From IMG/VR virus record IMGVR_UViG_2859799533_000007: a stretch of 23,282 nucleotides of DNA. One strand, 5' to 3'. The DNA is from a virus. Its lineage: Duplodnaviria > Heunggongvirae > Uroviricota > Caudoviricetes. Every line of letters begins with the position of its first letter. Position 1 is the stretch's first letter. Shown here piece after piece: positions 3,752 through 23,282 of this stretch. The notes beneath the pieces are model-generated. The model worked only from the letters and a program-made list of their open reading frames with translations, made no database searches and was not told the origin of the DNA. The position numbers and the translations under genes are program-made.

Positions 3752-3775
3752 AATTACCTCTCGCTTTTCTGCAAT

Positions 3776-3799: not shown

Positions 3800-3818
3800 C
3801 GTATCTGGGTTATAAAAT

Positions 3819-6800: not shown

Positions 6801-7292
6801 CAGGAACTGTGAGGTGGTCTTGCCGTTAATGGTGACGTCCTTTTCCGTCACCCAGCGGCCATTACGCTGTAACTGAATCAGAATCCGGACAGAGGAAGGA
6901 TTACGGTCGCCCTTTGACGTGGTCTGCACCAGTGACTGCACCCCGAAGGTAACCCGCAGGCGGTCAATGTTCGCGGACGTAATGGTGCGCGTCACCGGTT
7001 TTGCCTTCGTCACTTCCACGCCCAGTCCGGTTTCAGCTCCGGAGGACTCAAAGCCTTCCGGTGGTGTCTGCTCCTGCTCCCCGGCGCGCCAGACCGCCGT
7101 CACACCGTGTATCACGGGATTGCCGTCCGTGTCCGTCAGTGGGGTTTTGTTCACCAGAATACTCTGCAGTCCCTTCACCGGACCTTCTATCGGTCCCTCA
7201 CCAATCGCATCAATCACACTCATCATCTGCGTGGATTTGAGATTATCCTTCGCCTCACGAGGCGTGTGTGCCTTACCGCCACCTTTTCCCAT
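3819..7292 (-). CDS. J: Tail tip / host specificity protein J (central tail fibre)
   Basis: Long similarity to lambda J from [22 protein letters not shown]… onward. Start placed at the ATG at 7292, preceded by GGGGAAGG; the ORF-track extension to 7505 is a non-coding upstream read-through. About 1157 aa. Confidence 0.9.
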
Positions 7293-7392
7293 ACAGCCTT
7301 CCCCTGAATAAATTAACCGCCACTTGCCATTCCGTACAGAAGTCGGATATCCTTCGCCTGAAAAGCATGAAACACATTTCTGCCATGCTAAA

Positions 7393-7428
7393 GAAAACCC
7401 CGGTATCAGCAGATACCGGGGTTTTCTT
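7393..7428. terminator. Perfect 14-bp-stem hairpin flanked by A- and T-runs (bidirectional terminator-like)
   Basis: AAAGAAAACCCCGGTATC-AGCA-GATACCGGGGTTTTCTTT, located in the enlarged I-J intergenic region. Confidence 0.7.
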
Positions 7429-7496
7429 TCATGCCCACCGATAATCCTGTTGGTTAAAACCGGTAATGGCATAAAAATTCTGAATATCTTCACATT

Positions 7497-7524
7497 TTCA
7501 CACACTGACTGTGGCGCTTATAAT
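7497..7524 (+). promoter_or_regulatory. Sigma70-like promoter (TTCACA, 16-bp spacer, TATAAT), antisense to the tail operon
   Basis: -35 at 7497-7502 (5/6 to TTGACA) and a perfect -10 at 7519-7524, in an AT-rich intergenic insert. Confidence 0.5.
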
Positions 7525-7530
7525 TTCGCT

Positions 7531-7628
7531 GCGTTAGTGTTTTTTTGCCCGAGTAACAAAAACAACTCCTTCACATTGATCTTCATTTGTCTGTCCCCGC
7601 AGCTCCGCGATCACTGCGGGATTTTTTT
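7531..7628 (+). ncRNA. Candidate ~100-nt small RNA (promoter to terminator, no convincing ORF)
   Basis: Bounded by the promoter at 7497-7524 and a plus-strand terminator (stem CCCGCAG/CTGCGGG at 7596-7620, then T7 at 7622-7628). No ATG-initiated ORF inside. Prediction only. Confidence 0.35.
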
Positions 7629-7633
7629 ATGTT

Positions 7634-8305
7634 TTATCCCTGTCGCCCGATAACCACGACCTTTCCGCCCCCGCCTTCATCACGGGTGCTGATGTCCTGG
7701 GATATACGGCGGGAGCCAACCAGCATTTCCCCGTAAGGCACCGGCATCGGGTTCCCCTGGGCAATCATGTTATCCAGCGAGGAAAAGTACGTGTTCTGTC
7801 TGCCGTTATCCGTTGCGCGGTAATCCGGTGTTTTTGCCTTCGGGGCCAGCATCTGGGCCACACCGCCCAGAATCATGCTGGCTCCAAGTGAAAACAGCAT
7901 CGTGGTGGCAGAAAAACCACCGGCTGCCAGGGCTGAACCCCATAACGCCATTGATGCCCCGGCAGTGAAGAAAGAGCCCACGATGGCTGCCGCCCCCAAC
8001 ACAATCTGCAGTCCACCCTTTCCGGCCCCGGCCAGTCGCGGCACAATGTGGATGACCGTTCCCTCACCCAGCTGTTCGTGAAGACGGGCATACACCGCCT
8101 CCGGTGCCGTGTCATCACCGGCAATACGTATCTGGTACCAGCCTTCGTTCATCTGACGGCGAAAGCCCGGCATCTGCATCGACAGGGCGCGAATGGCTTC
8201 CGCTGCCGTGTTCACATACAGGCTGAGGCGGCGGCCAAATCGTTGCAAATCCCCGTGAAGGCAGATGGTGAAGCAGCTCACCGTTGCCGCAGTAAATGGT
8301 GGCAT
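7634..8305 (-). CDS. I: Tail assembly protein I
   Basis: …CLHGDLQRFGRRLSLYVNTAAEAIRALSMQMPGF…IHIVPRLAGAGKGG… resembles lambda I. Start chosen at the Met at 8305 (223 aa, as in lambda); the longer track ORF is read-through of the K overlap. Confidence 0.85.
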   Translation of the reverse strand: MPPFTAATVSCFTICLHGDLQRFGRRLSLYVNTAAEAIRALSMQMPGFRRQMNEGWYQIRIAGDDTAPEAVYARLHEQLGEGTVIHIVPRLAGAGKGGLQIVLGAAAIVGSFFTAGASMALWGSALAAGGFSATTMLFSLGASMILGGVAQMLAPKAKTPDYRATDNGRQNTYFSSLDNMIAQGNPMPVPYGEMLVGSRRISQDISTRDEGGGGKVVVIGRQG

Positions 8306-8864
8306 GGTTCGGTACCGAAGCACCAAAGCAGCACAGCAGAATATCGCCCGGCTGTGCAGAGGACAGGGGCACCCGGTAAAAGCCGGTGACCGCCATATTG
8401 TCCAGGTACAGGTTCTGGCCGTTGCGCCACCAGTCATCCTCGCGATGAAAATCCGGCATATCAATTCCCGCCAGATGGTATGCATCCCGGAACAGCGTGT
8501 AACAGTCCGTCACCCCGTGCTCAAAGCGCCGTCCTGTCAGATGTGGCACACAGCGGAATTTATGAATTTCCCCCCGGCAGACCAGCCACCAGGGCAGTGC
8601 GCTTTTTATCTGCAGCCGCCGGTCAGCCTCGCTCAGCCAGGGCAGCTCACCGGGATGACTGTGGACCAGTGCCACAATCTCCCCCTGCATCTCTGCCCGC
8701 AGCCAGTCTTCCGGTGCGATACGAAAATACGCCTCCGGCTCTGCAGAAATATTCACACAAGGGATATACCGCTCCCCCTCCGGCGTGCTTATCACGAAGC
8801 CGCACGACTCCGCAGGCGCACACCGCCGGGCATGCGCCAGAATCGCTGATTCAGTCTGTGTCAT
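8115..8864 (-). CDS. K: Tail assembly protein K (MPN/JAB plus NlpC/P60 domains)
   Basis: MTQTESAILAHARRCAPAESCGFV…HSHPGELPWLSEADRR…GVTDCYTLFRDAYHLAGI… Start ATG at 8864. The C-terminal ~45 residues look non-native and overlap I by ~190 bp, so the 3' end is uncertain. Confidence 0.8.
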   Translation of the reverse strand: MTQTESAILAHARRCAPAESCGFVISTPEGERYIPCVNISAEPEAYFRIAPEDWLRAEMQGEIVALVHSHPGELPWLSEADRRLQIKSALPWWLVCRGEIHKFRCVPHLTGRRFEHGVTDCYTLFRDAYHLAGIDMPDFHREDDWWRNGQNLYLDNMAVTGFYRVPLSSAQPGDILLCCFGASVPNHATIYCGNGELLHHLPSRGFATIWPPPQPVCEHGSGSHSRPVDADAGLSPSDERRLVPDTYCR

Positions 8865-8874
8865 AAACCGGGAT

Positions 8875-9573
8875 TTACTGCGAAAGTTTATTAATGGAAA
8901 GGAAACCGCCAAAATTGCCGACATTCCTGCGCAGTTCACACCCGCGCATGCACTTGCTGCATCTGTCCTTACGGATATCCGTGGTGGGTTTATCGAACTC
9001 ATCCGCCACAGCCCCGCCCGTGTAACCACACTCATCAGAGCGGTAGGTCCACATACAGGTGTTCGCCAGCATGATACGACCGGGAAACAGCGCCCCGTCC
9101 GTCTCGGTCGGTGTAGCCAGCACAAACGAGGCCGTCATGGCTGTCAGCTGCGACATCTGCTCCACCACCCAGCGGTCACTCAGCTCCTGCTCCGGGTCCG
9201 CCTCCGGATTGCCCGCAACGAAATTCACCGCATCCAGAAAACGGGCATACACCCGGCGGCGGACCACCGTGGCCCCCACCAGACTCTGCAGGTCTTCCGC
9301 CATCCCGGTGACCAGACCGAACAGATTGGACACCGTCAGCGACGGTCTGGCACTGCTGCCCCGGCCGTTCATCTCAAAGCCGCTGCCGTCAATCGGGTAT
9401 GCCTCATACTTACGCCCCTGCCAGGTGACCGGCTCCCCTTTTTCATTCAGCTCATTACAGAAAAAATACCGCTCACCACCCTGCACCGTCAGGTCGATTT
9501 CCCAGAGTACCACCCGCGGTGACTGCTCTGACTTAACCGACTCGTTCAGCCTTTCTTCGCGAATATCCTGCAT
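8875..9573 (-). CDS. L: Minor tail protein L
   Basis: 232-aa ORF MQDIREERLNESVKSEQSPRVVLWEIDLT… with the C-terminal Cys cluster typical of lambda L; start overlaps the M stop (ATGA). Confidence 0.9.
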   Translation of the reverse strand: MQDIREERLNESVKSEQSPRVVLWEIDLTVQGGERYFFCNELNEKGEPVTWQGRKYEAYPIDGSGFEMNGRGSSARPSLTVSNLFGLVTGMAEDLQSLVGATVVRRRVYARFLDAVNFVAGNPEADPEQELSDRWVVEQMSQLTAMTASFVLATPTETDGALFPGRIMLANTCMWTYRSDECGYTGGAVADEFDKPTTDIRKDRCSKCMRGCELRRNVGNFGGFLSINKLSQ

Positions 9574-9902
9574 CAGTTCACCACCTGCTTAAACTCCGCG
9601 CTGAACTCAACGCGCAACATCCCGACCCGCGCAGACCACCCGGCACAGGTCACCTTTATCTGCCGGTATGCATAAGGCGGTGTCCACAGAAACGCCTTCC
9701 AGCCACCGTGCTCTGCCAGGAATTCCTCCAGATGCCGGGCTTCCTCCCGGGTCACGGAAAGCGTCACCCGGTATGTTTTCAGGTCAGCACTCAGCCCTGC
9801 CGCCATACGCTGCGAATAGCCGTCACCAAAACGCACTTCACGCACCGATGGCCGCGAGTTCACCTCCATATCCGGTTTCACTTTCCAGCGAAAGGTTTTC
9901 AT
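9573..9902 (-). CDS. M: Minor tail protein M
   Basis: 109-aa ORF MKTFRWKVKPDMEVNSRPSVREVRFGDGYSQR…, same length and position as lambda M. Confidence 0.9.
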   Translation of the reverse strand: MKTFRWKVKPDMEVNSRPSVREVRFGDGYSQRMAAGLSADLKTYRVTLSVTREEARHLEEFLAEHGGWKAFLWTPPYAYRQIKVTCAGWSARVGMLRVEFSAEFKQVVN

Positions 9903-12509
9903 CGCCCGCTCCCCGATAACAGACCGCCATCACGCAACTGCAGCCGGAGCTCATCCTGCGCACCTTTACGGGCCATCTCATACACCGCTTTCATCAGCTG
10001 CGGCCCTGCCTGCCCGTTGGGGCCGTCGTTCTGAATCACCACGTGATTGTTCTGATTAAAATTAATGCCTTCGGCCCGCCGCATCTGCGCCGGACTTCCG
10101 GCACCGCCGACATAACCACCTTCCGCATACCCGCGCATCAGACGATACAGGTTGCCGACACCAATCCGGCTGGTCGCCTCCTTCGTGAAGACAAACTCCC
10201 CGCGATGGACAATCCCCGCAGGCTCATATTTGCCGCCCGTCCCGTAAATCCTCCGGTCGCGAAATGGAAGTTCGCCGCCGCAGCCTGAATGGCCGTCCCC
10301 GTGGAAGCGGATGCGCCACCACCGAAAGCACCACCAATGGCGCTGCCGATACGCCCGACAATCCCCACCATCGCCTGCTTCAGAAAAATCTCTGTCAGCA
10401 TGGAGAGCACGGAACGGGTGAAACCACGCCAGTTCTGTTCGCTGCCGGTCAGCATCGCCGCCATATTCTGTGCAATACCGTCAAAGGTCTGCGTGGCCAC
10501 ACTTTTTACCTGCGAAAAACTGTCCGTCGCACTTTCCGCCCACTCGCCCCAGCCGGACTTCATCCCGGCCATCCAGCTTCCACGAAGCTGCTCCTCCGCA
10601 GACCAGGTGTTCTTCAGTGCAGATGTGGCCTTCGCCAGCGCAGCCGGATTATCACCGTACACCTCACGAAGGCGCTGCTCTTCCGACTCCCGCTGCGCCT
10701 GACGGTCGGTGAGTCCGCGGGCTTTTGCGCTGATTGCCGCCTGCTTCGCGCTCTGCTGCTGTTCAAACCGCGCCGCCTGCTGTGCCAGCTCATTCAGCCG
10801 CTTCTGGTGTTCAATCTTGTCTCCCAGCTCAGCCAGCTGGCGTTTGTACTCCAGCGTCTCTTTCTCATGAGCCAGCAGGGATTTTTCCTGCCAGGATAAC
10901 TGCCGTTTCGTGGCAGCCTCTTTCAGGACCGCATACTGACTTTCCGCCTTCCATAAATCACGGCGCTGCCGGCTGATTTTCTCATTCGCACCGCTGTGTT
11001 TTTCCAGCGTCCTGAGCTCAGCTTCAAGGGCAAGCAGAGCCTCTCTTGCCTGCTCCTCTTCCCTCTCCCCGGCAGAGCGCGTTTTCGGTGATGTATGCTT
11101 TTTACCTGTCAGCTCTTCAGCCAGACGGCTGACGGCTTCCTGCTGCCCAAGACCTTTGCTGACGCCTGTTGCACGCGAGCGGTTGATGTACCCCATTTCC
11201 CCCTGGCGTATACGCGCATCCCGTTCCGCAATGGATTTTCTCAGCGCCAGTTCATCGCGTTTTGTTTTCTCAATAAATACGCGGTTCTCTTCTGCCAGTT
11301 CACCAAACAACGCACCAACGCCGGGCACATTCTTTGTCGTTTCCCAGGCTGACTGAATAAATTCAGCCAGTGCCAGATCCCCTGCACAAGCAGCAGCTTC
11401 ACCTGTTCAACGGTTCCGGCCACCACGTCAGTGATCAGACTGAGTGCCCCCAGTGTATGATCACCTATCCATGCCCATGCGTCAGAAGTCCAGGTTTTAA
11501 CATCGTCCCAGATTTTTTCCACCGGCGTGGCCGCTTTATCAAGTTGCTCCAGACGTGCATTCATGACATCCGCAAACAGGGACATCGCCTCCGTCACCGC
11601 AGCCTGTTTACCTTTCGTGCGCTCAAGCTCATCAATATGGCGTAACTGGGAAACGCTCAGGAAGTTATACTGCTGATTCAGGGAGGCCAGCGCCTTCACC
11701 GGATCTGCTGCAATCCCTTCAAAGGCTTTTTCCACCTTCCCGGCATCGTCCCCCACCGTCTGCAGCCATCTCTGAGAGGTTTCCCCCATGATCCGTAGCT
11801 GCCCGGCGGTATATTTCCCGCTTTCTGCCAGACGGGCCAGATTTTCTGCCGCCTGTCTGATACCACCACCGGCTTCATCGCTGATCACCCCGGCCATTTT
11901 CCACAATTCTGCCGTTGTGGTGGCAGCCGCCCCTCCGGTCAGGATCAGTGAACGCAATAAGGCCCGGTCAGCCTGCTCTGCCTGCCAGGCGGCGGCAGCA
12001 AGCACGGCCAGTACGGCAACCCCGCCACCTGCCGCCACACGGACCACCGACATAAATCGTCCCAGCTCACCGGCATTCCGGGCATTTTCAGCCAGTGCAT
12101 TTGCCGTATCTGACAGCGACTCCTCTGATGATTCAGAGGCATCCCTGATCCCGAGAAGTTCCTCCTTCAGCAGGGTAAGCAGGCTGAGCGGTTCACCGAA
12201 TGAATCGCTGATCTGCCCCCCCTGCTGCAGCATGATAAGGAAGGGATTCTGACCACCGGCAAGCTGAGTGACAATATCCGTGAACTGTGCGGGCAGTGTG
12301 CGCATGGCAGCCTTATACTGTCCGACTCATATCCCGGCTTTTTGTGCAGCCAGCGCCTGTCGGCTCAGCCCCTGTTCAACAGTACTGGCGGTTTTTCTGG
12401 CATCCGCCTCCAGACTGGAAAAATGACGGCGTACCCGGGCCATCTGTTCATCAAACCGGGCCGCATCCAGACTCAAATCAATAACCAGATCACCCGCTGG
12501 CTGGGACAT
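9899..12509 (-). pseudogene. H: Tail tape measure protein H, disrupted by one in-frame stop and two frameshifts
   Basis: N-terminus MSQPAGDLVIDLSLDAARFDEQMARVRRHF… is H-like, then an in-frame TGA at 12327-12329. Reading continues in the same frame to ~11390, shifts frame near the C4 run 11389-11392, and shifts again at the C3 run 10241-10243 before the H-like C-terminus …QNNHVVIQNDGPNGQAGPQLMKAVYEMARKG…. Confidence 0.85.
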
Positions 12510-12903
12510 ATCTCACACCTCCGGAAATCCCCGCTGAAGCCATCATTAATGCAACATCATCCTCGCTGACATCCACCACATTCGCAGAAGGTGAAATATC
12601 GCGCCCTCCGTCCCCTCCGAACCGGACGCCTCCGGCAACTCCTGTCGCTTTCTGCATCAGCATTTCTTCCTCGTCCGGCATCTCCGTCTGCTCTTCCTCA
12701 CACGCTGGAGCAAGCAGACTGAAATCCGCCGGATGCATATCCGGATCGCCAAAAAACAGGCTGAGTACGGCGTACATCAGCCCGGAAAAATGAGCGTCCA
12801 GTTGGGTATCCTGAAAATAATGCGTGCAGTAAAAACGTCGCCAGTCGGCATATTCGGTGGATGTCATCCCGGCAAGCATGGCGCGCCAGTCGGGTCTCCC
12901 CAT
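12490..12903 (-). CDS. T: Tail assembly chaperone T domain (normally made only as the G-T frameshift fusion)
   Basis: …RPDWRAMLAGMTSTEYADWRRFY… followed by an acidic stretch and GGVRF/GGVRYV motifs; its stop lies 17 nt after the H start codon, a lambda-like overlap. The frame is open upstream to 12927. Confidence 0.75.
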   Translation of the reverse strand: MGRPDWRAMLAGMTSTEYADWRRFYCTHYFQDTQLDAHFSGLMYAVLSLFFGDPDMHPADFSLLAPACEEEQTEMPDEEEMLMQKATGVAGGVRFGGDGGRDISPSANVVDVSEDDVALMMASAGISGGVRYVPASG

Positions 12904-13321
12904 CTCTCGCGCCAGTTTCAGGACAAGTTACCGGCTCAGTCGCTTCTGCTTTCCCGGTTTGTTCAGGATCGGCATCGTGCCGGTTATCCAGCATACCTGA
13001 AAGATAAAGCACCCGGTTCGTTGCCTGATTCAGTGCATCAGCAGGCCATCCCAGCATCACTTCACGGCGGATCTGCTGCATCTCTGTCTCCGGAGAGGCC
13101 AGAGTGCCTTTGAGGGAATGGGTATGCCATAGCGACATCGCCACAAGCAGGGATGCCGTTTCCAGATATCGCTGGTTAATGTGCACGACATCATGCTTCG
13201 TTGTCTCCTGTTGTTCTGCGTCTGAAACAAACTTTATATAATCAAACCGCTGCAGCGCAGACAATTCGGAAAGCGTGACAGACACACCGTTATATTCAAA
13301 TTGTTCTGTTTTCAGAAACAT
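12698..13321 (-). CDS. G: Tail assembly chaperone G; N-terminal ~125 aa G-like, 3' extension probably spurious
   Basis: MFLKTEQFEYNGVSVTLSELSALQR… resembles lambda G. The ORF is 207 aa (lambda G is 140 aa); the part beyond the GGGAAAG heptamer is Arg/Cys-rich and looks like an out-of-frame reading of the T region. Confidence 0.6.
   Translation of the reverse strand: MFLKTEQFEYNGVSVTLSELSALQRFDYIKFVSDAEQQETTKHDVVHINQRYLETASLLVAMSLWHTHSLKGTLASPETEMQQIRREVMLGWPADALNQATNRVLYLSGMLDNRHDADPEQTGKAEATEPVTCPETGARDGETRLARHACRDDIHRICRLATFLLHALFSGYPTGRSFFRADVRRTQPVFWRSGYASGGFQSACSSV
12949..12955 (-). promoter_or_regulatory. GGGAAAG slippery heptamer (putative G-T -1 frameshift site)
   Basis: Plus-strand CTTTCCC at 12949-12955. 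In the frame that reads it as G GGA AAG a TAA follows 7 codons later (12928-12930), lambda-like, but that frame is neither the N-terminal G frame nor a -1 partner of the T frame. Confidence 0.5.
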
Positions 13322-13334
13322 GTATTACCTCCGT

Positions 13335-14087
13335 TTACCCTGCAGCGCCCGCTTCAGTAACGGTGACTTCAGCCACTGCGGCGAACTGACCATTTCCGCT
13401 CACCACAAGGATCTGCACCTTACCTGTCGCCACGCCGTTTACCGTAATTGTCATATCTTTCACACTAATGGTGGCTTTCGACGGATCGGCGGAAACCGCT
13501 CTGAACGTCTTGTCGGTTGCACTTTCCGGCTCAAAAGAAACCGTCAGGGTGGTTGTTTTCCCTTTTGCCACCGTACCGGATGTCGGCGTCACCTTAATCG
13601 CACTGACCGGCGTAATTTTGCTGCGTTCTTCCGCTACAGAAGGTTTACCCACGTTAGTGACTTTCACCGTGCGGGTGATCACTTCTTTCGCCGTCACGGC
13701 CTTACCGATACTGCTGACCCAGCCACGAAACACATCCACCGTGCCATTCGGAAAACGGATTTTATAGGCCCGGACATCGCCGCTTTCAAACCAGCCTATA
13801 AGCCCTTTCTGGCCTTCCTCTCCCGGTTTCCAGGCCAGCGTAAAACTGGTATCACCTGCAGATTTCTGCCCCTGCCCGGTCGCGTTCCAGTCCGCGTCTT
13901 CATCATCCAGGTAGTTATCATCGTAGGATTCTGCCGTCATCTCGCCCGGCGTCAGATCCTTCACCTTAGCCAGTCGCTGCCAGTCATCGTCTGACAACGG
14001 GTTTGCATAAGCATCACCCTTGCCGTTGTAAACCCACAGAGTGGTACCGGCACCTTTTACCGGCTCAAGGGGATTTGGTGTTGCCAT
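13335..14087 (-). CDS. V: Major tail protein V with C-terminal Ig-like domain
   Basis: 250-aa [67 protein letters not shown]…; Thr/Val-rich C-terminal beta domain. Confidence 0.9.
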
Positions 14088-14094
14088 ATCGTCC

Positions 14095-14490
14095 TCACAT
14101 CTCGTATGTAATGGAATAAGTCAGATCTGCAGAACTCCATAACGCCATATCGTCATCACGACGATACTCATAGCCCTGCGTAACCATCGTGGTAATCAGT
14201 CCTGCCAGTGCCGGGATCGCAGTCATCGCCGGGTAAATCCGGCTTTCCATCCACTGATCAAGCTCTGAATCCGGTACCTGTGCCGGTAAAAACACCTCAA
14301 TATGCAGCGTGGCCCGCCAGGTATCTGCATCCAGCTCTTCACCGGTATACTCTGCATCCGTCAGATAAACCGCGATCGCAGGAAAATCCTCTTCGTCAAA
14401 AACAACGGGGCGACCATCAAACAGCGTCGCCCCGTGTTCATGCTGCTCGAGTGCATCCAGCACTGCGGCACGAATGTCAGTGTGTTTCAT
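14095..14490 (-). CDS. U: Tail terminator protein U
   Basis: 131-aa ORF in the lambda U position and size. Confidence 0.85.
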
Positions 14491-15062
14491 CGTTTTATCG
14501 CAATCCTCAGTTGTTGTTTCAGCGCGTATGCCAGTTCTTTAGGCAGGCGTTCACGCCGGATACGGTCAACATTCTCATCAAATGCCTGTTTCAGTGGGGC
14601 CGCCATCGGGATTTTCACCACCTGAATGGGAAGGCGATTACGCTTTTTCCTTCCCTTGTCGTCATTGCCCTCCTCATATCTGGCCTGGGGAAGACGTTGC
14701 ATAACATGCCAGCGCCCATTATTTAATCGCTGGATAAATGCCCGCTGATAACGATGCTGACCGGCTTTGAGTATGCTGTTCGGACGACGTCCCAGCATTC
14801 TGATCCCCAACTTAATCACAGGGAGATCACCGCGGTTAACGATAATTCTGGCATTCGGATTTCTGACCGTCGCCCGTTTCAGTCTGGACCGTTCCTTTAC
14901 CAGTTTCCGTCTCACCCTGGTTTCCCGGGCAACCTGTGACGAAGACTGATTAATCGCCGTTGTGGCCACGCGGTTAATCGTCATTGCTGAAGCCGCCGGA
15001 ATGGCGTTTTTACGAACCCGGCTCAGATTATCAATCGCCTGATCAAGCCCTTTTATCGCCAT
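14487..15062 (-). CDS. Z: Tail completion protein Z
   Basis: 191-aa ORF in the lambda Z position and size; stop overlaps the U start. Confidence 0.85.
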   Translation of the reverse strand: MAIKGLDQAIDNLSRVRKNAIPAASAMTINRVATTAINQSSSQVARETRVRRKLVKERSRLKRATVRNPNARIIVNRGDLPVIKLGIRMLGRRPNSILKAGQHRYQRAFIQRLNNGRWHVMQRLPQARYEEGNDDKGRKKRNRLPIQVVKIPMAAPLKQAFDENVDRIRRERLPKELAYALKQQLRIAIKR

Positions 15063-15077
15063 AATTTCACCCTGCGT

Positions 15078-15431
15078 TTATCGTCGCCGGTTAACAGCGG
15101 GTGGTTGCCCACGGTTGAGCCAGAGATAACAGCTTCCCCCGTCATCCGGAGAAATACGATCCACCCAGAACATCTCGCCGTTAATGGTCAGCGTGTCACC
15201 ACGCCGCACGGCACGCACCGTATCCGTCCGCACAAATAATGACGGGCTGCTTCCTTCAATACGGACCCCGCCACCGGCAAAACCCAGCGACTCCGGATCG
15301 TCAAAAACCCCCTGAACTTCGCTTCCACGCTGTGCTCCCGAGGTGAACTGCGCACAGAGCCCCATCACTTCAACAATCGTGCTGTCCACCCCGGCAAGGG
15401 CAGCATCAAAGGCATTCTGAAAATCACGCAT
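15078..15431 (-). CDS. FII: Head-tail joining protein FII
   Basis: 117-aa ORF, same length and position as lambda FII. Confidence 0.85.
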   Translation of the reverse strand: MRDFQNAFDAALAGVDSTIVEVMGLCAQFTSGAQRGSEVQGVFDDPESLGFAGGGVRIEGSSPSLFVRTDTVRAVRRGDTLTINGEMFWVDRISPDDGGSCYLWLNRGQPPAVNRRR

Positions 15432-15807
15432 GCTCAGCCGTTCCGTGCTGTATCATGGCTGTCGCCAGTGGTGATGGCACCATAACACGCATGCCCCGGT
15501 ACGTCAGTTCAACGGGACGGCCTGTCTCCGGGCAATACCCCATCACATGCAGGCATTTCCGCACACGGACCGCTTTAACATCATCCGTAGCATCCGTGTT
15601 GTTCAACTGCTCACCATCGTCTGTGTGATTTTGATCAGCCCCGCTCTCATCAGAGTGCATAATGCCCTCCGGGGAAACAGCAAGCTCCTCTTCCCACTCA
15701 GACACACGTTGAGCAATATCCGCAGCACTCCCCGACATATCCGCCTCGCGCCCCAGCAGGCCAGCCAGTTGACGAAGACGATTCAGATTTTCTTCTTTTG
15801 TTGCCAT
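15424..15807 (-). CDS. FI: DNA packaging / head assembly protein FI
   Basis: Start placed at the ATG at 15807, preceded by AGGAGG (MATKEENLNRLRQLAGLL…); acidic central region; lambda FI position. Confidence 0.8.
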   Translation of the reverse strand: MATKEENLNRLRQLAGLLGREADMSGSAADIAQRVSEWEEELAVSPEGIMHSDESGADQNHTDDGEQLNNTDATDDVKAVRVRKCLHVMGYCPETGRPVELTYRGMRVMVPSPLATAMIQHGTAEHA

Positions 15808-15858
15808 CTCAGCCTCCTGTGAAAAAAGACACGGGGGCATTTCGCCCCCGCTCACGGA

Positions 15859-16887
15859 TTATTTCACCTGTACCACCACAAACTCATCCGGATCCGGCAG
15901 CACCATCAGCGGTGCGGACTGCGTCATGGTGAATTCACGGGCCGGATCGCCCACAGTCAGCCAGTGTTTCGGATAACGGGAAGAGGCCACCACACCTTCG
16001 GACAACGCCTGCGCATCCTGAATGGCACCATAGCAACGAATGCCCTCTGCTGCCGTATTCCCCAGGACCAGTGTGCCCTCCGGCAGATAACGTTTTTCGG
16101 TACCGTCCTCTGCCACATAAGACGTTTTCGCCACCACAATGGCCAGATCGCCGTAATACCCCTTGAAGGACACCACCGCCCCCAGGTCTTTCACTGCCGT
16201 TTCGAGTTGTGAATTTGAGCCGCGACGGGTATCCAGTTTTTCGCGGAACAGCTTAAAGCCATTCAGCAGACGCCAGACCGTACCGTCCATAATGGCGATA
16301 TTCACAAGGCCGCTGGCCTGATCGCAGTAGAGGTCAATATCATGCGTCGGATCAAACGTATCACGGTCCTGCTCAGACCATTTTTTACCGTCAGCCTGCT
16401 CAATGTTATTTCCTTCAGAGCGCCCGAAATCCACCTCGACAGTATCAAACTGATCCCCTTCCATGGTGTATTTGCCATACAGCACGGCATTCACCGCCTG
16501 CATTTCTTCCACCTGGACAATGGCGTGCTCTTCCTGTTTGAGGTTATCGGTAATGATACGCAGACGACGGTAGGCCGGGTCGTTCAGCTGAGCCGGATCT
16601 TCACCAGGAAGGCGCTCAACCGCCTGCTGGTAATTAAATTCGTGTTTGGGCTTGACGTAGCCCGGACGTAACACGCGGGTTTCACCACCGCGATGGCGAA
16701 GCACTTTTCCTTCAACGATCGGGGAGACATAGGCCGCCACCGGCGTTTTTCCGGTAATTTTGTCCAGCATCACCTCTTCGGTGTGGAAATTCACCGTACG
16801 GCGGAAAAACAGCTCCAGAAACAGCGCACGGAATTTCACTTTTTGTTCGGTATAACCGAGTAACTGGCGGGTCGTAAACAATCCCAT
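15859..16887 (-). CDS. E: Major capsid protein E
   Basis: 342-aa ORF with extensive similarity to lambda E (…YVSPIV.G.V.R.RGG…PGYVKPKHE…DTRRGSNS.LETAVKDLG…GDPAREFTM.QSAPLM…). Confidence 0.93.
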   Translation of the reverse strand: MGLFTTRQLLGYTEQKVKFRALFLELFFRRTVNFHTEEVMLDKITGKTPVAAYVSPIVEGKVLRHRGGETRVLRPGYVKPKHEFNYQQAVERLPGEDPAQLNDPAYRRLRIITDNLKQEEHAIVQVEEMQAVNAVLYGKYTMEGDQFDTVEVDFGRSEGNNIEQADGKKWSEQDRDTFDPTHDIDLYCDQASGLVNIAIMDGTVWRLLNGFKLFREKLDTRRGSNSQLETAVKDLGAVVSFKGYYGDLAIVVAKTSYVAEDGTEKRYLPEGTLVLGNTAAEGIRCYGAIQDAQALSEGVVASSRYPKHWLTVGDPAREFTMTQSAPLMVLPDPDEFVVVQVK

Positions 16888-16944
16888 AAATCAGTTCCTT
16901 TCATTAAGAAATCAGTCAGGCCAACGCGGTGGCCTGATAACGTG

Positions 16945-17292
16945 TTACGGCAGCGCCGCGTGACTCAGGGCTGTGCCGGCAAAGGCATTTGCCTTTTTGT
17001 GTTCATCCCCACTGTCAGGCCAGCGGATTGCCTCCGTCGCAAAGGTCCCCGACTTGTAATAGGTCAGCACCGTCTCTGTGCCTTCAAGCGGCAGTACCAG
17101 TATGCCAACCGCACTACCGGCTTTCTGTCCATCCCAGACCACCAGTTTCCCGGTGGCTTCATCCAGCATCAGGGGCGTCAGAGCCGGTGTTGCCGAGGAA
17201 ATCCCGCTGCTGCCTGTGGCGGTGTGAGCCGGATCATTACCGGCAAAAATACGTACTTCCGCACGCTGTTCAGTGATGGTTTTCGTCACCAT
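16945..17292 (-). CDS. D: Head decoration protein D
   Basis: 115-aa ORF …NDPAHTATGSSG…TPLMLDEATGKLVVWDG…AVGILV…TYYKSGTF… resembles lambda D. Confidence 0.9.
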   Translation of the reverse strand: MVTKTITEQRAEVRIFAGNDPAHTATGSSGISSATPALTPLMLDEATGKLVVWDGQKAGSAVGILVLPLEGTETVLTYYKSGTFATEAIRWPDSGDEHKKANAFAGTALSHAALP

Positions 17293-17328
17293 TTTGTTAA
17301 AACCTCATATTGATGGTCAGCACTGACT

Positions 17329-18833
17329 TCATGGCATGGCCATGAGCATTTTCACGTCCGCATCACCGTCTGCTGACGTCTGTGACACGCCACCCCGCAC
17401 CGCTGCCGGTGAATGATTCGCCATGAAATGTTCAAACAGGGCGGTTGTGGATGCAGAGACCGGTTCGGCCTTACCTGATCCCGCAGCCAGCACCGCCCGG
17501 GCGTTCTCCACGGTCATTCCCGGGCAGGCCGCCAGTTTTTCAGCCTGCGCTTCTGCCCCTTTTGCCTCATCCAGGGCCATGATCTGATCACGAAGTGAGG
17601 GCCCGGCATCCGCCAGTGGTGCAGCCGCCAGGATCGGGCGGGCTTTTTCCACCGTCATCTCCGGCATCGCCGCCAGCGTTGCCGCCAGTTGTTCACGACC
17701 GTTCGCTTCTTCACACGCCATAATGCGATCGGCTTCACTCTGCGCGGATGCCACCGGCTGCTGCGGTGCCGCCGCGGCCAGAATCGCCCGGGCCTGTTCA
17801 ACGCTCATGCCCTGTTGCCCTGCCAGCATCGTGGCAAGCTGTTCACGTCCTTTCGCTTCCTGGCATGTCAGGATCCCCATCACTCGCTGGTTCTCCTGCA
17901 CGGCGGCTTCCGTTGCAGTTAATTGCGGCATAGTGCCTCCTCTGACATTACTGTTCAGCGCCGTGGCCATCACACTGATGGCATCCGACGCATTGATTAA
18001 TTCATCCGCCAGCCCGGCCTCAATGCCGGACTGACCTTCAAAAACAGCGGCCTCTGTTCCCGTGACTGCATCAACAGACAGACCGGTAAACATCGCCACT
18101 TTTTCGGCAAACATCCGGCGCGCCGCATCAATCCGCTGCTGCATGTCCTGGCGAACCTCTGCCGGCAACGCTTCAAACTGATTGCCATCCACCTTGTGCG
18201 CCCCTGAGTAAATCAGCGTGATATCCACACCGGCCTGCGCCAGATGACCGGCATAGCTGACATGGCTCATCATCACGCCAATGGAACCGATACGGGATGT
18301 CTGGGTAACCAGCCGTCGGGAGCAGGCCGACGCCAGCAGCATGGCCGCAGAACAGGCCGTGTCATTACACAGTGCCCAGACCGGCTTCTGCTGCCGGAGG
18401 CGGTAAATCATGTCAGCGCAGTCAAACACGCCGGCGGCCTGCCCGCCCGGACTGTCAATGTCCAGCAGTATGCCCCGCACCTGGCTATCTGCCATTGCCT
18501 GCTGAAGACAGGTGACAATGCCGTCATAGCCAGTCATTCCGGAAAATGGCCGCATCCCCCCAGCCGGTGCACCAGCGTGCCGGTCACCGGCAGTACCGCA
18601 ATACCGTTCACCACCCGGTAAACACGGGCCGGTCGTTTACCTCCGGCCATGTACTCGTCCGTTTCAGCCAGCATCCCGGGAGCATCAAGCTGTACCTGCT
18701 GTTGCGGTACCGAAAGACTTGCTGCCCCCATCTCGCGCCCCAGCGCGCAAAAGAAAACCCGCGCATAGGCGGGCTCCAGAAGCAGCGGTTCATTGAATGC
18801 TGCTGCAATAATGTGTGAAAGATTACGTCTCAC
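17329..18833 (-). pseudogene. C: Head maturation protease C with nested scaffold Nu3 (S49/ClpP-like), frameshifted
   Basis: N-terminal segment (…AAFNEPLLLEPAYARVFFCAL…) is in a different frame from the rest (…SGMTGYDGIVTCLQQA…KPVWALCNDTACSAA…). The frames join at the C6 run at 18556-18561. Confidence 0.85.
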
Positions 18834-19595
18834 GTGGTGTTGTCTCCTCTTCCGGCCTGCGACTCTCCGCTATCTGCTGCTGATACGCCTGCGCTATCCA
18901 CACCGGACGTGAGAGTCCGGCTTTTTCCCGCTCTGCAGATTCCCTGACCTGCTGGCAGAAAATGTCCTGATAATCCTCGCCCATCAGCGCCAGCTCTTTC
19001 TCATACGTGCTCAGTCCGGCCTCAATGCGCATCACTGATTCCTGAACCTCCTTGAGCCCGTCAATGGCCATTCTTCCGGCTCCAATCCACTCAGCCCGTG
19101 ACCAGGCTGATCGCGCCTGATAAAAATCAAACCGTGCCCGTGGCGGACGAATAATCCCCGAAGAAGTGCCTCTTCCAGCCAGCAGGAAAACATCTGCGTG
19201 GCCAGCCGGGACGCAATAAATTTTCGCCGCCCCATAAAATAGCGCCACGACTCATTGGCGGATGCGCGGGCACTTGAGTAACTGACCTTCGAGTAATCAC
19301 GGGACAACTGTTCGTAGGAAACGCCAAGACCGGCGGCGATATACCGCAGCAGCGCCTGTTCAAGCGCCGAAAATCCATTGTCTGAATCCTGCGCGGTCTG
19401 AAGTTTCAGATCATCACCGGGGAAAAGGTGCGGAATTTTGACACCGCCCAGCATCACGCTATTCGTGTCATACCAGGTGGAGAACTTATCCAGAATATTA
19501 ATAAGCGGATTATCCTTCTGCCCCTGCGGCGCACCGGCGATATATTCAAAGGCCTTTTCGGTATCAAGGTCACTTTCAATCGTCGCTGCATACAT
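18823..19595 (-). pseudogene. B: Portal protein B, 3' half only, with an internal frameshift
   Basis: Two frames carry portal-like sequence and join at the C4 run 19156-19159. Only ~257 codons are present (lambda B is 533 aa); upstream of 19595 the frame reads AT-rich non-coding sequence. Confidence 0.75.
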
Positions 19596-19783
19596 CGCCT
19601 TTATGAAAAGACAGGAAAAAATAAAATTTAAAAACAGTACATTACGAATGCTCAGACCTATCGTTTAAAGGAGTCGCAATACACACTGCAATACACGATT
19701 ATTTATAAGATGAGCGGCATCCGTCATAAAGCTGGTGGATGCTTTTTCTATGCATATATGCACAGTTTTAGTGGGCGTTAATG

Positions 19784-19807
19784 TCGATATAGGGATCCCC
19801 ATATCGA
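19784..19807. repeat. 24-bp near-perfect palindrome TCGATATAGGGATCCCCATATCGA (operator-like)
   Basis: Differs from its reverse complement at one symmetric position pair only. Confidence 0.6.
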
Positions 19808-20025
19808 GATTGGATACCAGGCTTTTTTAATCAGGCTGGTGGGCTTTACCTGTTTTGTATGAGTGGTCATCATGACCATGTCATAACAAAAACCCCATAT
19901 TCGTGGTTTTTCTGTGTCGGGCTATTCTGTCGTTGCTGTGCTGATTTGGCTGGTGGGCTGAATCATCATTACGGCGATGCAGCTATGTAGACGTTCCGGC
20001 CTCCTCAAATTGAGGATTGTGGAAG

Positions 20026-20187
20026 AATCAATGGGTTAGTCTTACTTTCCCGACATCCCCCAATGGGGGGTTTCGAAACAATCAATAGCTTAGGCTTACT
20101 TCCCCGATTTCCTGCATTGCAGGTTTTCGAAATAATCAATGGGTTAGGCCATCGTGCAATTTTGCACTTTGCCAGCCAGCGCAATGT
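20026..20187. repeat. Tandem array of three 54-bp direct repeats, each with an internal GC-rich hairpin
   Basis: Units begin AATCAAT at 20026, 20080 and 20134. Units 1 and 2 share ~40 of 54 positions, with the hairpin arms changed in a compensatory way (CCCCC-AAT-GGGGG versus CCTGCA-T-TGCAGG); unit 3 diverges after position 15. Confidence 0.7.
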
Positions 20188-20397
20188 CGCGTTATCAGTC
20201 CTCAGATGTGAGGGATGTAGCCAGCTTTTCCCCCAGTGGGGGATATCCAGCACCGACGGCTTAACTGTGCGTGCCAGCACAAGGTAGCCTTGAACTACTT
20301 ACTGCATCCCATCTTACAGGCCGTGCCTTCCTGCTTAACTTTTTGCAATGCAACAAGTCAGCCAGCGCAATTTTGCGTTATCGGGAATATCAGCAAG

Positions 20398-20679
20398 TTA
20401 CCGCCGCAATCGTTCCGGCTTCTTCCACTGGTAAGTATTTTTCGCGCTCTCCCTCCGTTGTTGAGAACGGCGACGATATGCCAGCAACTCAAGGACTCTT
20501 GTTCGTATGTTGCGCATATCCACGCCGTTAAGCTCAATACCGTCACGGCGCATCACCTCAGCCACTACACGCACATAATTATCTGCGGTCACGCTGTCCG
20601 GCTGCGTGGCCTGTTCGTCATGCTGCTTGCTGATTCCACAAGCACGGCGGATTAATCGCAGTATTTCGGATTCAGTCAT
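20398..20679 (-). CDS. Hypothetical small basic protein (93 aa)
   Basis: ATG-initiated ORF with coherent charged composition (MTESEILRLIRRACGISKQHDEQ…); weak RBS; I do not recognise a homologue. Confidence 0.4.
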   Translation of the reverse strand: MTESEILRLIRRACGISKQHDEQATQPDSVTADNYVRVVAEVMRRDGIELNGVDMRNIRTRVLELLAYRRRSQQRRESAKNTYQWKKPERLRR

Positions 20680-20803
20680 AGCGTACTACGTTACTTATCT
20701 TTATTCGGCTGCAACTTATCCGGTACGTTTCCGGCAGTTTCCATCAGATAATCGGACAGCTGAGGTGTACTGGCAATAGCGGACACTACCATTTGTTCTT
20801 TTT

Positions 20804-21622
20804 TTAAGCAGCCATCTGATGATATTTTTCCCTGAAGGCTGCCGGGGAGATATTCCCCAGACGAGAGTGACGACGCTGACGATTGTAGAAAATCTCAATG
20901 TATTCCCGTATTACTGAGATGGCTTCATCCCGGTTATTAAAACGATAGTGGCTCAGGCTCTCATTTTTCAGCGTTCCCCAGAAGCTTTCCATCGGAGCGT
21001 TGTCGTAACACTGACCTTTACGCGACATTGATGTTTTCAGACCAGACTGCTCCTGTATGACCCGGTAATCGTATGCGCAGTACTGTGAACCTCGATCAGA
21101 GTGGTGGATTAGCCCGGCAGGTGGGCGCTGGCTCCTGAGCGCCATAAACAGGGCTTTACCTGTCAGCTCTTTTGTCATGCGCTCTCCCATGGCGTAGCCG
21201 ACAATTTCGCACGTATAAACATCTTTGATGCCAGCGAGGTACAACCATCCCTCCTGTGTGGCAACATACGTCAGGTACGCCACCCAGACCTGATTTGGTG
21301 CTGTAGGAGCGAACGTCTGGTTCAGCAGATTTGGCGCAACTGGCAGATTGTGGTTCGGGTTCGTAGTCGCTCTGAACTTGCGTTTCTGCTTACAGCGTAG
21401 CCTTAGCTCCTTACGAAGACGTGCCAGTCGGTCACGACCAACGATGATGCCATTCTCTGCCAGCTCCGTCTGGAGCCGCCGGGTTCCATATGTTTCGCGA
21501 GTGCGGATATGTGCCACCTTAATCTCCAGTTTTAGCCGCTCATCACTTTGTTTTCTGTCTGAGGGTTCATGCTGTACCCAGTTGTAATAACCGCTCCTGG
21601 ATACACCAAATACCTGACACAT
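20804..21622 (-). CDS. IS3-family transposase OrfB (DDE domain)
   Basis: 272-aa ORF …HHSDRGSQYCAYDYRVIQEQSGLKTSMSRKGQCYDNAPMESFWGTLKNE…; the frame is open upstream toward the frameshift window. Confidence 0.9.
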   Translation of the reverse strand: MCQVFGVSRSGYYNWVQHEPSDRKQSDERLKLEIKVAHIRTRETYGTRRLQTELAENGIIVGRDRLARLRKELRLRCKQKRKFRATTNPNHNLPVAPNLLNQTFAPTAPNQVWVAYLTYVATQEGWLYLAGIKDVYTCEIVGYAMGERMTKELTGKALFMALRSQRPPAGLIHHSDRGSQYCAYDYRVIQEQSGLKTSMSRKGQCYDNAPMESFWGTLKNESLSHYRFNNRDEAISVIREYIEIFYNRQRRHSRLGNISPAAFREKYHQMAA

Positions 21623-21657
21623 CGCTTCAATGGGAAATTGTTGTCGCCATTGTTCGA

Positions 21658-21960
21658 TTAACGCGTATTTTTCAGCGACTCCTGTGCAAAATACGCTGTT
21701 GCTTTTTTTAATATATCTCGCTCAAGGCGAGCTTCATTTAACGCCTTACGCAGTTGCAGAATTTCAGATTCCAGTTCAGCCACCGTGCGGGAACCAGGAG
21801 TACCGAGCCCTTTTCTGGCGGCGGTAACCCATTGTCCTAAAGTGCCTTCAGGAAGGGATAATCGGGAAGCGCCTTCACTGATCGAAAGTTGATTTTCAAG
21901 AACCGTTCTGACAGCTTCGGCTTTGAACTCTTTAGAGTAACGTTGGTTTTTTCTGCTCAT
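21658..21960 (-). CDS. IS3-family transposase OrfA (helix-turn-helix plus leucine zipper)
   Basis: 100-aa ORF MSRKNQRYSKEFKAEAVRTVLENQLSISEGASRLSLPEGTLGQWV…; an A7G slippery run (plus-strand T7 at 21703-21709) sits near its 3' end. Confidence 0.9.
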   Translation of the reverse strand: MSRKNQRYSKEFKAEAVRTVLENQLSISEGASRLSLPEGTLGQWVTAARKGLGTPGSRTVAELESEILQLRKALNEARLERDILKKATAYFAQESLKNTR

Positions 21961-22115
21961 TATTAGCTCCTTCTGATGCCATTCTATTTCAGGAAGGAGT
22001 GTCCGTTAAACTCAGGCTACCTCAATCAGCGCCAGTCAGTCAGCCGGAGCAAAAACAGAAGCCCCACTCATTCCGGAACAACCTTCTTAATAACCCATTT
22101 CAACGAGAAAATCCT

Positions 22116-22620: not shown

Positions 22621-23282
<662 letters not shown>

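What the first reader, a model, noticed from the sequence alone, without database searches (positions are those of the whole stretch)
19784..19960. Operator-like palindromes and a 12-bp direct repeat in the non-phage junction DNA
A 24-bp near-perfect palindrome (19784-19807), a 7-1-7 palindrome TGGTCAT-C-ATGACCA (19864-19878) and two copies of GGCTGGTGGGCT about 125 bp apart lie in an AT-rich segment with no convincing ORF. The density of symmetric sites suggests a regulatory region or recombination site belonging to whatever element supplied this DNA.
Basis: seen in the sequence. Interest (0 to 1): 0.4.

Follow-up and report, generated by a model that had tools for sequence, protein, structure and literature searches.

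The report
Chi-site cluster in phage-satellite tail
This stretch is the non-coding tail of a known kind of phage parasite (a helper-embedded PICI satellite) left inside a prophage portal gene; its "direct repeat" is a cluster of Chi recombination hotspots, which these satellites carry in large excess, and its palindromes are real and conserved but have no assigned function.

Summary
The 24-bp palindrome, the 7-1-7 palindrome and two GGCTGGTGGGCT copies lie at the stated coordinates, in AT-rich DNA with no supported ORF.

The DNA is not anonymous junction DNA. It is the integrase-distal tail of a helper-embedded PICI satellite of the published group B:Phage_portal_2:241. The satellite sits in the portal gene of a Rac/phage-21-like prophage and is cut off at 20760 by IS600.

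The 12-mer contains Chi (GCTGGTGG). A third Chi lies at 19731, and these three co-oriented sites are the only Chi in the 23-kb window. In the intact 10.9-kb relative, Chi is the commonest octamer: 10 copies, against none in 38 kb of flanks. In 19 dereplicated relatives the density is 1.02 per kb, and Chi ranks first in 16.

The likeliest role is Chi-dependent taming of RecBCD by a satellite that has no Gam or recombinase. This is known for some lambdoid phages, and I found no report of it for satellites.

The palindromes belong to a palindrome-dense tail. Their partners are unknown. They are not cos, not an Rfam RNA, and not canonical terminators.

Next door, three 54-bp units copy the roi gene and each pairs a palindrome with an IHF site.

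The parts
19032..19601 (-). C-terminal fragment of a phage-21-like portal gene, where the prophage DNA ends
   Evidence: Phage records match only up to window 19601, with annotation 'portal protein B'. RefSeq calls it 'phage portal protein, missing N-terminus' in 98%-identical loci.
19594..19601 (.). att identity block ATCGCCTT (crossover core) of the satellite
   Evidence: The same 8-mer lies at both junctions of the intact satellite in E. coli EC28. The published identity block 'aaggcgat' for HE-PICI group B_Phage_portal_2_241 is its reverse complement.
19676..19696 (-). Doubled arm-type motif GCAATACACACTGCAATACAC, the reverse complement of TGTATTGC x2
   Evidence: It matches the HE-PICI-specific doubled motif tgTGTATTGCantgTGTATTGCa, reported 81 +/- 2 bp from the attP centre. 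Here its near edge is about 79 bp from the core centre. A second copy lies near int in EC28.
19716..19748 (+). 11-pair hairpin followed by TTTTC, with Chi-1 (19731-19738) inside it; terminator-like on the + strand
   Evidence: Terminator scan, RNA fold and Chi search.
19751..19762 (.). Perfect 12-bp palindrome TGCATATATGCA
   Evidence: (I11).
19784..19807 (.). 24-bp palindrome TCGATATAGGGATCCCCATATCGA, centred on GATC
   Evidence: It is a perfect 24-mer in relative L024. The inner ATGGGGATCCCCAT is conserved in portal-type, tqsA-type and other PICIs, while the outer arms vary or are deleted.
19834..19845 (+). Chi-2 (GCTGGTGG at 19835-19842) in the conserved block ...TTAATCAGGCTGGTGGGYTTTAC
   Evidence: The window carries a 13-bp deletion (CCGGTTAACCTTT) just upstream, relative to EC28.
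19864..19878 (.). 7-1-7 palindrome TGGTCATCATGACCA
   Evidence: GTGGTCATNATGACCAT recurs in relatives in at least 4 different flanking contexts.
19888..19911 (.). A5-CCCC-ATATTC-GTGG-T5 hairpin with a weak stem, resembling a bidirectional terminator
   Evidence: fold it on both strands. Relative L034 has AAAAACAAC-ATATTC-GTTGTTTTT, which is one double compensatory change.
19948..19959 (+). Chi-3 (GCTGGTGG at 19949-19956)
   Evidence: D3.
19996..20157 (+). Three tandem 54-bp units, each a 13-bp palindrome with different arms plus a perfect IHF consensus; homologous to a segment of lambdoid roi genes
   Evidence: (D1). This lies outside the finding but belongs to the same tail.
20398..20679 (-). 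Last satellite gene: 93-aa protein of unknown function (phrog_1561)
   Evidence: No Pfam, NCBIfam or PDB match.
20680..20760 (-). 3' remnant of the satellite terS; satellite homology ends at 20760, where IS600 begins
   Evidence: The BLAST match to the EC28 locus ends at 20760. IS600 annotation.

Best explanation
SHOWN. Window 19602-20760 is what remains of a helper-embedded PICI satellite of group B:Phage_portal_2:241. It integrated into the portal gene of a Rac/phage-21-like prophage and lost everything upstream of its last gene to IS600. The finding lies in the satellite's 0.8-kb non-coding tail, between that last gene and the attachment site. The '12-bp direct repeat' is Chi, 5'-GCTGGTGG-3'. 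Three co-oriented copies lie within 226 bp. Chi is the most over-represented octamer of this satellite family, at about 1 per kb. That is 4-5 times the E. coli average taken from general knowledge, and the surrounding prophage has none.

INFERRED. These satellites have no annotated Gam-type RecBCD inhibitor and no recombinase. They would therefore rely on Chi to switch RecBCD from degradation to RecA loading whenever their DNA is linear, that is, after cos cutting, after injection, or as rolling-circle tails. In the intact element the three tail sites face RecBCD arriving from the terS-proximal cos end, 1.4-1.65 kb away. Chi in a conserved linker block should also favour the module swapping seen between satellites.

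The two palindromes are conserved dyad elements of a palindrome-dense tail. My best guess is binding sites for dimeric DNA-binding proteins, as seems likely for the neighbouring palindrome-plus-IHF-site units. This is not shown. In this window the whole tail is a relic without int, cos or replication genes.
For: Identity of the DNA. The window is 98% identical to E. coli loci in which a 10.9-kb element splits a portal gene; the element runs int-alpA-Bro-icd-primase-SSB-capsid-decoration-alpA-terS-93aa. The att core ATCGCCTT lies at both junctions and equals the published identity block. The doubled TGTATTGC motif is present. IS600 truncates the element.

Chi. These are the only 3 Chi in the window. 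The intact satellite has 10, against 0 in 38 kb of flanks. Chi is the rank-1 octamer, where same-composition permutations average 0.43 copies. The flanks of the 10 copies are unrelated and 5 lie in non-coding DNA. Nineteen dereplicated relatives hold 187 Chi in 184 kb, and Chi ranks first in 16 of the 19. Density is about 1 per kb inside satellites and about 0.05 per kb outside. Using an anchor chosen without reference to Chi, 36 of 37 distinct tails carry at least 1 Chi. No rec or gam gene is annotated in the satellite, whereas the helper carries recE and recT. This matches the rule reported for lambdoid phages (PMC3784561; PMC12315714).

Orientation. The orientation rule is taken from PMC12315714. 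The satellite cosN lies upstream of terS.

Palindromes. They are enriched and conserved.
Against: Chi activity was not measured. In the lambda packaging model the terS-proximal end is covered by terminase, so these three sites are in the 'inactive' orientation for that route.

Orientation across the family is balanced (87 against 100). Fourteen of the 37 related tails lack this block, and many of those carry an opposite-strand Chi instead. The end-protection geometry is therefore not general.

Conservation of Chi-2 cannot be separated from conservation of the whole block around it.

For the palindromes, no partner protein, second copy or convincing promoter was found. The outer arms of the 24-mer are dispensable in many relatives.
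Confidence: 0.7

Rival explanations
1. Operator or attP-accessory region. The palindromes would be binding sites for satellite or host proteins (an AlpA-type excisionase or activator, IHF, Fis) that assemble the attP complex or control a promoter reading across attP towards int. The 12-mers would be iterons.
For: The region adjoins the att core and the arm-type sites. There is dyad symmetry centred on GATC. One relative shows a symmetric T-A to C-G change in the outer arms. A weak promoter-like site on the minus strand at 19727-19698 points at attP. The satellite encodes two AlpA-family proteins. By analogy with lambda, excisionase sites lie in the int-distal arm (general knowledge).
Against: The 24-mer lies about 185 bp from the core, beyond the arm motif. 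Its spacing from the arm motif differs between att types (88 bp against 106 bp). It is shared by satellites with different arm motifs and integration sites. There is no second copy in the satellite. The 12-mers share only the Chi octamer with 8 other copies.
Confidence: 0.25
2. RNA or single-strand structure. The palindromes would be hairpins in the 3' untranslated tail of the satellite late operon, acting as stabilisers or terminators, or as insulators against antisense read-through from flanking DNA.
For: Both strands fold better than shuffles (z = -3.6 and -2.6). The single mismatch of the 24-mer becomes a G-U pair on the minus, sense strand. The hairpin at 19888-19911 shows one compensatory double change. 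There is a terminator-like hairpin on the + strand at 19716-19748.
Against: Neither palindrome has a U-tract next to it. The consensus block does not fold better than shuffles (z = -0.3 to -1.6). There is no Rfam match. Covariation rests on one or two variants. Loops would be only 1-4 nt.
Confidence: 0.2
3. A packaging (cos) site, or decayed coding DNA, or chance.
For: A tail position next to terS is where cos sites were reported in some PICIs (PMC10111431 discussion). A 99-codon open frame exists further right, at 19991-20287.
Against: There is no match to cosN GGGCGGCGACCT with up to 3 mismatches in 19600-20400. The satellite's cosN is upstream of terS in the intact relative. There are no Pfam hits and no phage-database hit for 19610-19995. 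The chance expectations are low, and the sequence is conserved in hundreds of genomes.
Confidence: 0.03

Closest known systems
Helper-embedded PICIs (HE-PICI), site group B:Phage_portal_2:241 (Tommasini, Mageeney and Williams 2023, PMC10111431)
   Same: Integration inside a lambdoid late gene and co-oriented with it. The identity block is aaggcgat. The doubled TGTATTGC motif lies about 80 bp from the core. Close relatives have the four-zone gene order and a size of about 11 kb.
   Different: Here only the last 1.16 kb survives, because IS600 removed the rest. The paper does not describe the tail's Chi cluster, the palindromes or the roi-like units. A search of its text for 'palindrom' gave 0 hits, and the single 'chi' word-start hit was in the sequencing methods.
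Chi-rich lambdoid phages without a recombination module (phage LLS class, PMC12315714; Bobay et al. 2013, PMC3784561)
   Same: The element lacks Gam and recombinase. Chi is the top-ranked octamer. Chi sites cluster near a genome end. A neighbouring element that has its own recombinase (here the helper, with recET) has no Chi.
   Different: Here it is a satellite of about 11 kb, not a phage. Density is higher, about 1 per kb against about 0.5 per kb in LLS (23 Chi, with the 42.7-kb length inferred from primer positions). The two orientations are balanced (87 against 100), where LLS has 20 against 3. The tail cluster faces the terS-proximal end, not the right end.
Lambda attP arm organisation (arm-type Int sites, Xis, IHF and Fis sites); from general knowledge
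   Same: AT-rich non-coding DNA beside the core, with repeated arm-type motifs and nearby dyad or bend elements.
   Different: The palindromes lie beyond the arm motifs, at variable distance. They are shared by satellites with different integrase specificities.
Roi binding site with adjacent IHF site inside the HK022 roi gene (Clerget and Boccard 1996, recalled from memory; the paper was not readable here)
   Same: The neighbouring 54-bp units (19996-20157) are 88-96% identical to the corresponding roi segment. Each pairs a palindrome with a perfect IHF consensus.
   Different: The two palindromes of the finding lack that flanking consensus. In the satellite the units are non-coding, tandem, and of different 'alleles'.

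Membership tests
HE-PICI (helper-embedded PICI) | Inserted within a prophage late gene, co-oriented with it | tested here: met
   The portal gene ends at 19601. In 98%-identical E. coli loci the N-terminal portal part lies beyond the satellite's int, and all genes are on the same strand.
HE-PICI (helper-embedded PICI) | att identity block of the site group (aaggcgat for B_Phage_portal_2_241) | tested here: met
   ATCGCCTT lies at 19594-19601 and at both junctions in EC28.
HE-PICI (helper-embedded PICI) | Doubled TGTATTGC motif about 81 bp from the attP centre | tested here: met
   The motif lies at 19676-19696, with its near edge about 79 bp from the core centre.
HE-PICI (helper-embedded PICI) | Integrase of the HE-PICI clade, plus AlpA and primase | not testable with these tools
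   These genes were deleted from the window by IS600. They are present in the EC28 relative, but no integrase phylogeny was made.
Chi recombination hotspot | Exact octamer 5'-GCTGGTGG-3' in an enteric host | tested here: met
   Three copies at 19731, 19835 and 19949, all on the + strand. The window is 98% identical to E. coli.
Chi recombination hotspot | Over-representation beyond what composition predicts | tested here: met
   Rank-1 octamer, 10 copies against a mean of 0.43 for permutations. Density is 1.02 per kb in 19 dereplicated relatives.
Chi recombination hotspot | RecBCD-dependent activity (attenuated degradation, RecA loading) | not testable with these tools
   This needs genetics or biochemistry.
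LLS-type Chi-rich, Rec-less lambdoid elements | No Gam or recombination module | tested here: met
   None is annotated or found by Pfam in the EC28 satellite. This is limited by several small ORFs of unknown function.
LLS-type Chi-rich, Rec-less lambdoid elements | Strong bias to the packaging-active orientation and clustering at the right end | tested here: not met
   5 against 5 in EC28 and 87 against 100 in relatives. The tail cluster faces the terS-proximal end.
Lambda-type cos site | cosN GGGCGGCGACCT, or a near match | tested here: not met
   No match with up to 3 mismatches in 19600-20400. The satellite cosN is upstream of terS.
Intrinsic terminator | GC-rich hairpin immediately followed by a U-tract | tested here: not met
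   Not met for the 24-mer or the 7-1-7 palindrome. Met only by the hairpin at 19716-19748 on the + strand.
Palindrome-plus-IHF module (roi-like unit) | 13-15-bp palindrome followed after 10-11 nt by WATCARNNNNTTR | tested here: not met
   The three neighbouring units meet it. The two palindromes of the finding do not. Chi-2 overlaps only a near-consensus sequence, TAATCAGGCTGGTG.
Known RNA families (Rfam 15) | Covariance-model match | tested here: not met
   No match at E up to 5 in 19400-20800, or at E up to 1 in the whole intact satellite.

The most novel reading that the evidence does not exclude
The non-coding tail of these enterobacterial PICIs would be a protein-capture platform. It would hold an array of operator-plus-IHF-site modules copied from different alleles of the helper-phage regulator gene roi (Rha/KilAC family), together with further dyad sites such as the two palindromes of the finding. 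The platform would sense or titrate helper DNA-binding regulators of several specificities. The satellite as a whole would depend on host RecBCD-Chi, not on any phage recombination system.
Probability: 0.15. Interest if true: 0.7.

Novelty: new member of a known kind. Interest (0 to 1): 0.4.

Why it matters
It turns an anonymous "junction" into a mapped relic of a helper-embedded satellite.

It also extends to phage satellites a rule so far described only for lambdoid phages: elements without their own RecBCD inhibitor or recombinase load themselves with Chi. If Chi is functional here, PICI replication, stability and transfer should depend on RecBCD and RecA. That would be a new host dependency and a possible weak point for these carriers of virulence and defence genes. 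Chi octamer rank could then also help to delimit satellites inside Chi-free prophages.

The palindrome and IHF architecture of the tail gives concrete sites to test for helper-satellite cross-talk.

Tried and rejected
1. cos site. cosN was not found in the region. It lies upstream of terS in the intact relative.

2. Known RNA. Rfam gave nothing for the region or for the whole satellite.

3. Coding DNA. The small ORFs have no Pfam hit. There is no phage-database match for 19610-19995. Plasmid hits are only short shared pieces.

4. Protein-anchored search of species genomes with the 93-aa protein returned nothing. The palindrome pattern in the same collection gave one Shigella PICI plus chance hits.

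5. Function of the adjacent 93-aa protein. It belongs to phrog_1561 only and has no Pfam, NCBIfam or PDB match. The AlphaFold model was poor (pLDDT 66, pTM 0.45), so no fold search was run.

6. AlpA as the shared binder of the conserved block. The AlpA proteins of two att types are 57% identical, which does not decide the question.

7. Extra copies of the 24-mer half-site in the satellite: none beyond chance.

8. A cognate roi gene in the helper. The EC28 helper is Rac-like and has no annotated roi.

9. A fixed palindrome-to-arm distance as a sign of attP function: 88 bp against 106 bp, so not fixed.

10. Clerget and Boccard 1996 could not be read. What is said about the Roi site rests on memory.

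Full report
OBSERVATION.
- A 24-bp palindrome, TCGATATAGGGATCCCCATATCGA, lies at 19784-19807, with 11 of 12 arm pairs complementary.
- TGGTCAT-C-ATGACCA lies at 19864-19878.
- GGCTGGTGGGCT lies at 19834-19845 and 19948-19959. The spacing is 114 bp start to start.

GC falls to 0.434 in 19501-20000. The only ORFs in the finding are 45 aa and 43 aa, without Pfam hits.

A 12-0-12 palindrome with at most 1 mismatch is expected 0.045 times per window. A 7-1-7 palindrome is expected 1.4 times, so it is ordinary on its own. However, 3 of the 5 in the window lie within 380 bp here.

WHERE THE DNA COMES FROM. Phage records match the window only up to 19601, where a phage-21-type portal gene stops. Forty-nine E. 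coli genomes carry the whole of 19550-20450 at about 98% identity.

In strain EC28 the same sequence is the end of a 10.9-kb element. Its genes are: integrase, AlpA-like protein, Bro-N protein, Icd-like protein, DUF4222, primase, SSB, an E-like capsid protein, a D-like decoration protein, a second AlpA-family protein, terS, and a 93-aa protein. This element splits a portal gene into N- and C-terminal parts, inside a Rac-type prophage that carries recE and recT.

Both junctions carry ATCGCCTT. GCAATACAC repeats lie near both ends.

This is a helper-embedded PICI (HE-PICI), as described by Tommasini, Mageeney and Williams 2023 (PMC10111431). The doubled motif tgTGTATTGCantgTGTATTGCa, reported about 81 bp from the attP centre, is the reverse complement of window 19676-19696. 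The paper's supplementary table lists the group B_Phage_portal_2_241 with identity block 'aaggcgat', the reverse complement of ATCGCCTT.

In the window, homology to the satellite stops at 20760, where IS600 begins. Only the tail, the 93-aa gene and about 80 nt of terS survive.

The finding therefore lies in the int-distal, non-coding 0.8 kb between the last gene and the attachment site of a satellite relic.

THE DIRECT REPEAT IS CHI. GGCTGGTGGGCT contains 5'-GCTGGTGG-3'. A third copy lies at 19731. These three + strand sites are the only Chi in 23.3 kb.

In the intact EC28 satellite:
- There are 10 Chi, 5 on each strand, against none in the 38 kb of flanking prophage and chromosome.
- Chi is the most frequent octamer of the element. 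The 168 permutations of the same composition average 0.43 copies.
- The ten copies share nothing but the octamer, and five lie in non-coding DNA.

Among relatives fetched from IMG/VR by sequence motifs:
- Density is about 1 per kb inside satellites and about 0.05 per kb outside.
- After dereplication to 19 elements sharing less than 60% of their 12-mers, there are 187 Chi in 184 kb (1.02 per kb), and Chi ranks first in 16 of the 19.
- With an anchor that does not contain Chi, 36 of 37 distinct tails have at least one Chi within 1 kb.

No recombinase or Gam is annotated in the satellite.

This is the pattern already reported for lambdoid phages. Those without a recombination module are rich in Chi, and those with one avoid it (PMC3784561; PMC12315714). 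Three full-text searches found no report of it for satellites.

ORIENTATION. RecBCD recognises Chi when it approaches from the 3' side of GCTGGTGG (PMC12315714). For the window's + strand, that means from higher coordinates.

In intact relatives the nearest natural end on that side is the satellite's own cosN. It lies upstream of terS, 1.4-1.65 kb from the three sites. The cluster would therefore meet RecBCD entering at the terS-proximal end.

This inference is weak for three reasons:
- In the lambda packaging model, terminase covers that end.
- The two orientations are balanced in the family (87 against 100).
- Related tails without this block often carry a Chi on the other strand.

The well-supported point is Chi saturation, not a particular geometry.

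THE PALINDROMES. The tail is unusually rich in dyad symmetry. The 815-bp tail of EC28 has 10 perfect palindromes with arms of at least 6, against 0.96 in shuffles. Only 13 more are found in the other 10 kb.

The 24-mer:
- It is conserved in HE-PICIs, and also in capsid-forming PICIs inserted in tqsA of O157:H7 and other strains. Those elements have different arm motifs and integration sites.
- It is a perfect 24-mer in one relative.
- One variant changes an outer T-A pair to C-G.
- Many relatives keep only the inner ATGGGGATCCCCAT, and some lack it altogether.
- It is followed by a block conserved in most of the relatives examined, CCGGAT(7-8)CCGGTTAACnnTTAATCAGGCTGGTGGGyTTTAC, which holds Chi-2. 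Fourteen of the 37 tails lack that block. The window has lost 13 bp of it.

The 7-1-7 palindrome recurs as GTGGTCATNATGACCAT in at least four different contexts in relatives. It behaves as a small movable module.

Neither palindrome has an adjacent U-tract. The consensus block does not fold better than shuffles. There is no Rfam hit, no second copy of the 24-mer half-site, and only a weak promoter-like site nearby.

Two small points favour an RNA hairpin on the sense strand. The mismatch of the 24-mer becomes a G-U pair there, and the hairpin at 19888-19911 shows one compensatory change. This rests on very few variants.

I therefore treat the palindromes as real, conserved elements of unknown partner. 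Protein binding seems slightly more likely than RNA structure.

THE NEIGHBOURING REPEATS. Just right of the finding, three tandem 54-bp units (19996-20157) are 88-96% identical to one segment of lambdoid roi genes, in codons about 41-57 of the Phage_pRha domain. Different units match different roi alleles.

Each unit holds a 13-bp palindrome with different arms: CCTCAAATTGAGG, CCCCCAATGGGGG and CCTGCATTGCAGG. After about 11 nt comes a perfect IHF consensus. The three IHF sites are exactly 54 bp apart and make up 3 of the 4 in the window, against 0.57 expected.

Relatives carry 1-5 such modules, with at least 7 palindrome types in the same frame of conserved flanks.

From memory, HK022 Roi binds a site inside its own gene next to an IHF site (Clerget and Boccard 1996). 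I could not read that paper.

This suggests that the tail collects operator-like sites taken from helper regulators. It is the basis of the 'novel case' and is not shown.

VERDICT. It is wrong about the repeat, which is Chi.

The element is a known kind, an HE-PICI. Chi saturation of such satellites seems to be undescribed, but it is an extension of a known principle. The palindromes remain unassigned.

Interest is moderate for the finding itself. It would be higher if the tail proves to be a platform for helper regulators.

Noticed in passing
window 19996-20157: Three in-frame tandem 54-bp units are homologous (88-96%) to a segment of lambdoid roi (Rha/KilAC) genes of different alleles. Each has a 13-bp palindrome with different arms plus a perfect IHF consensus. 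The IHF sites lie exactly 54 bp apart at 20026, 20080 and 20134. Relatives carry 1-5 such modules with at least 7 palindrome types.
   Followed up: partly
window 20173-20196 and 20359-20382: A 24-nt direct repeat, CAGCCAGCGCAAT(G/T)T(C/T)GCGTTATC. The second copy is part of a palindrome-plus-IHF-like module that overlaps the stop codon of the 93-aa gene, and it is present in nearly all relatives.
   Followed up: partly
window 20761-22020 and 22629-23282: An IS600 copy cuts the satellite off inside terS. A second IS3-family transposase fragment runs off the right end of the window. The IS load suggests a Shigella-like or IS-rich E. coli genome.
   Followed up: partly
window 17329-19595: The portal remnant and the S49 prohead protease are each split over two overlapping reading frames (ORFs 19032-19595 and 18823-19248; 18534-18833 and 17329-18555). 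In E. coli EC28 each is one continuous gene. These look like frameshifts, so the prophage head genes are probably decaying.
   Followed up: no
window 7293-8258, with hairpins at 7398-7421 and about 7596-7630: A stretch between the J-like tail gene and the upstream tail genes has no BLAST match to the EC28 prophage. It holds two strong terminator-like hairpins. One is AAAACCCCGGTATC-AGCA-GATACCGGGGTTTT, which is the only other 12-0-12 palindrome in the window.
   Followed up: no
L003 31352-31406 (E. coli EC28 relative): The satellite has its own lambda-type cosN, GGGCGGCGACCT, upstream of its terS. It is identical to the helper's cosN at L003 44139-44150, but the downstream cosB region differs. 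A Chi lies 43 bp from the satellite cosN on the sense strand.
   Followed up: partly
window 1-19601; L003 outside 29612-40512: There is no Chi at all in 19.6 kb of prophage DNA in the window, or in 38 kb flanking the satellite in EC28, whose helper carries recE and recT. Chi density marks the satellite boundary sharply.
   Followed up: yes
L019 (IMG/VR relative), about -200 to +100 around the 24-mer: A mosaic joint. The portal-type att arm, Chi-1 and the left half of the palindrome are fused, inside the palindrome, to the tqsA-type right-hand sequence. This suggests that the conserved block serves as a recombination linker between modules.
   Followed up: no
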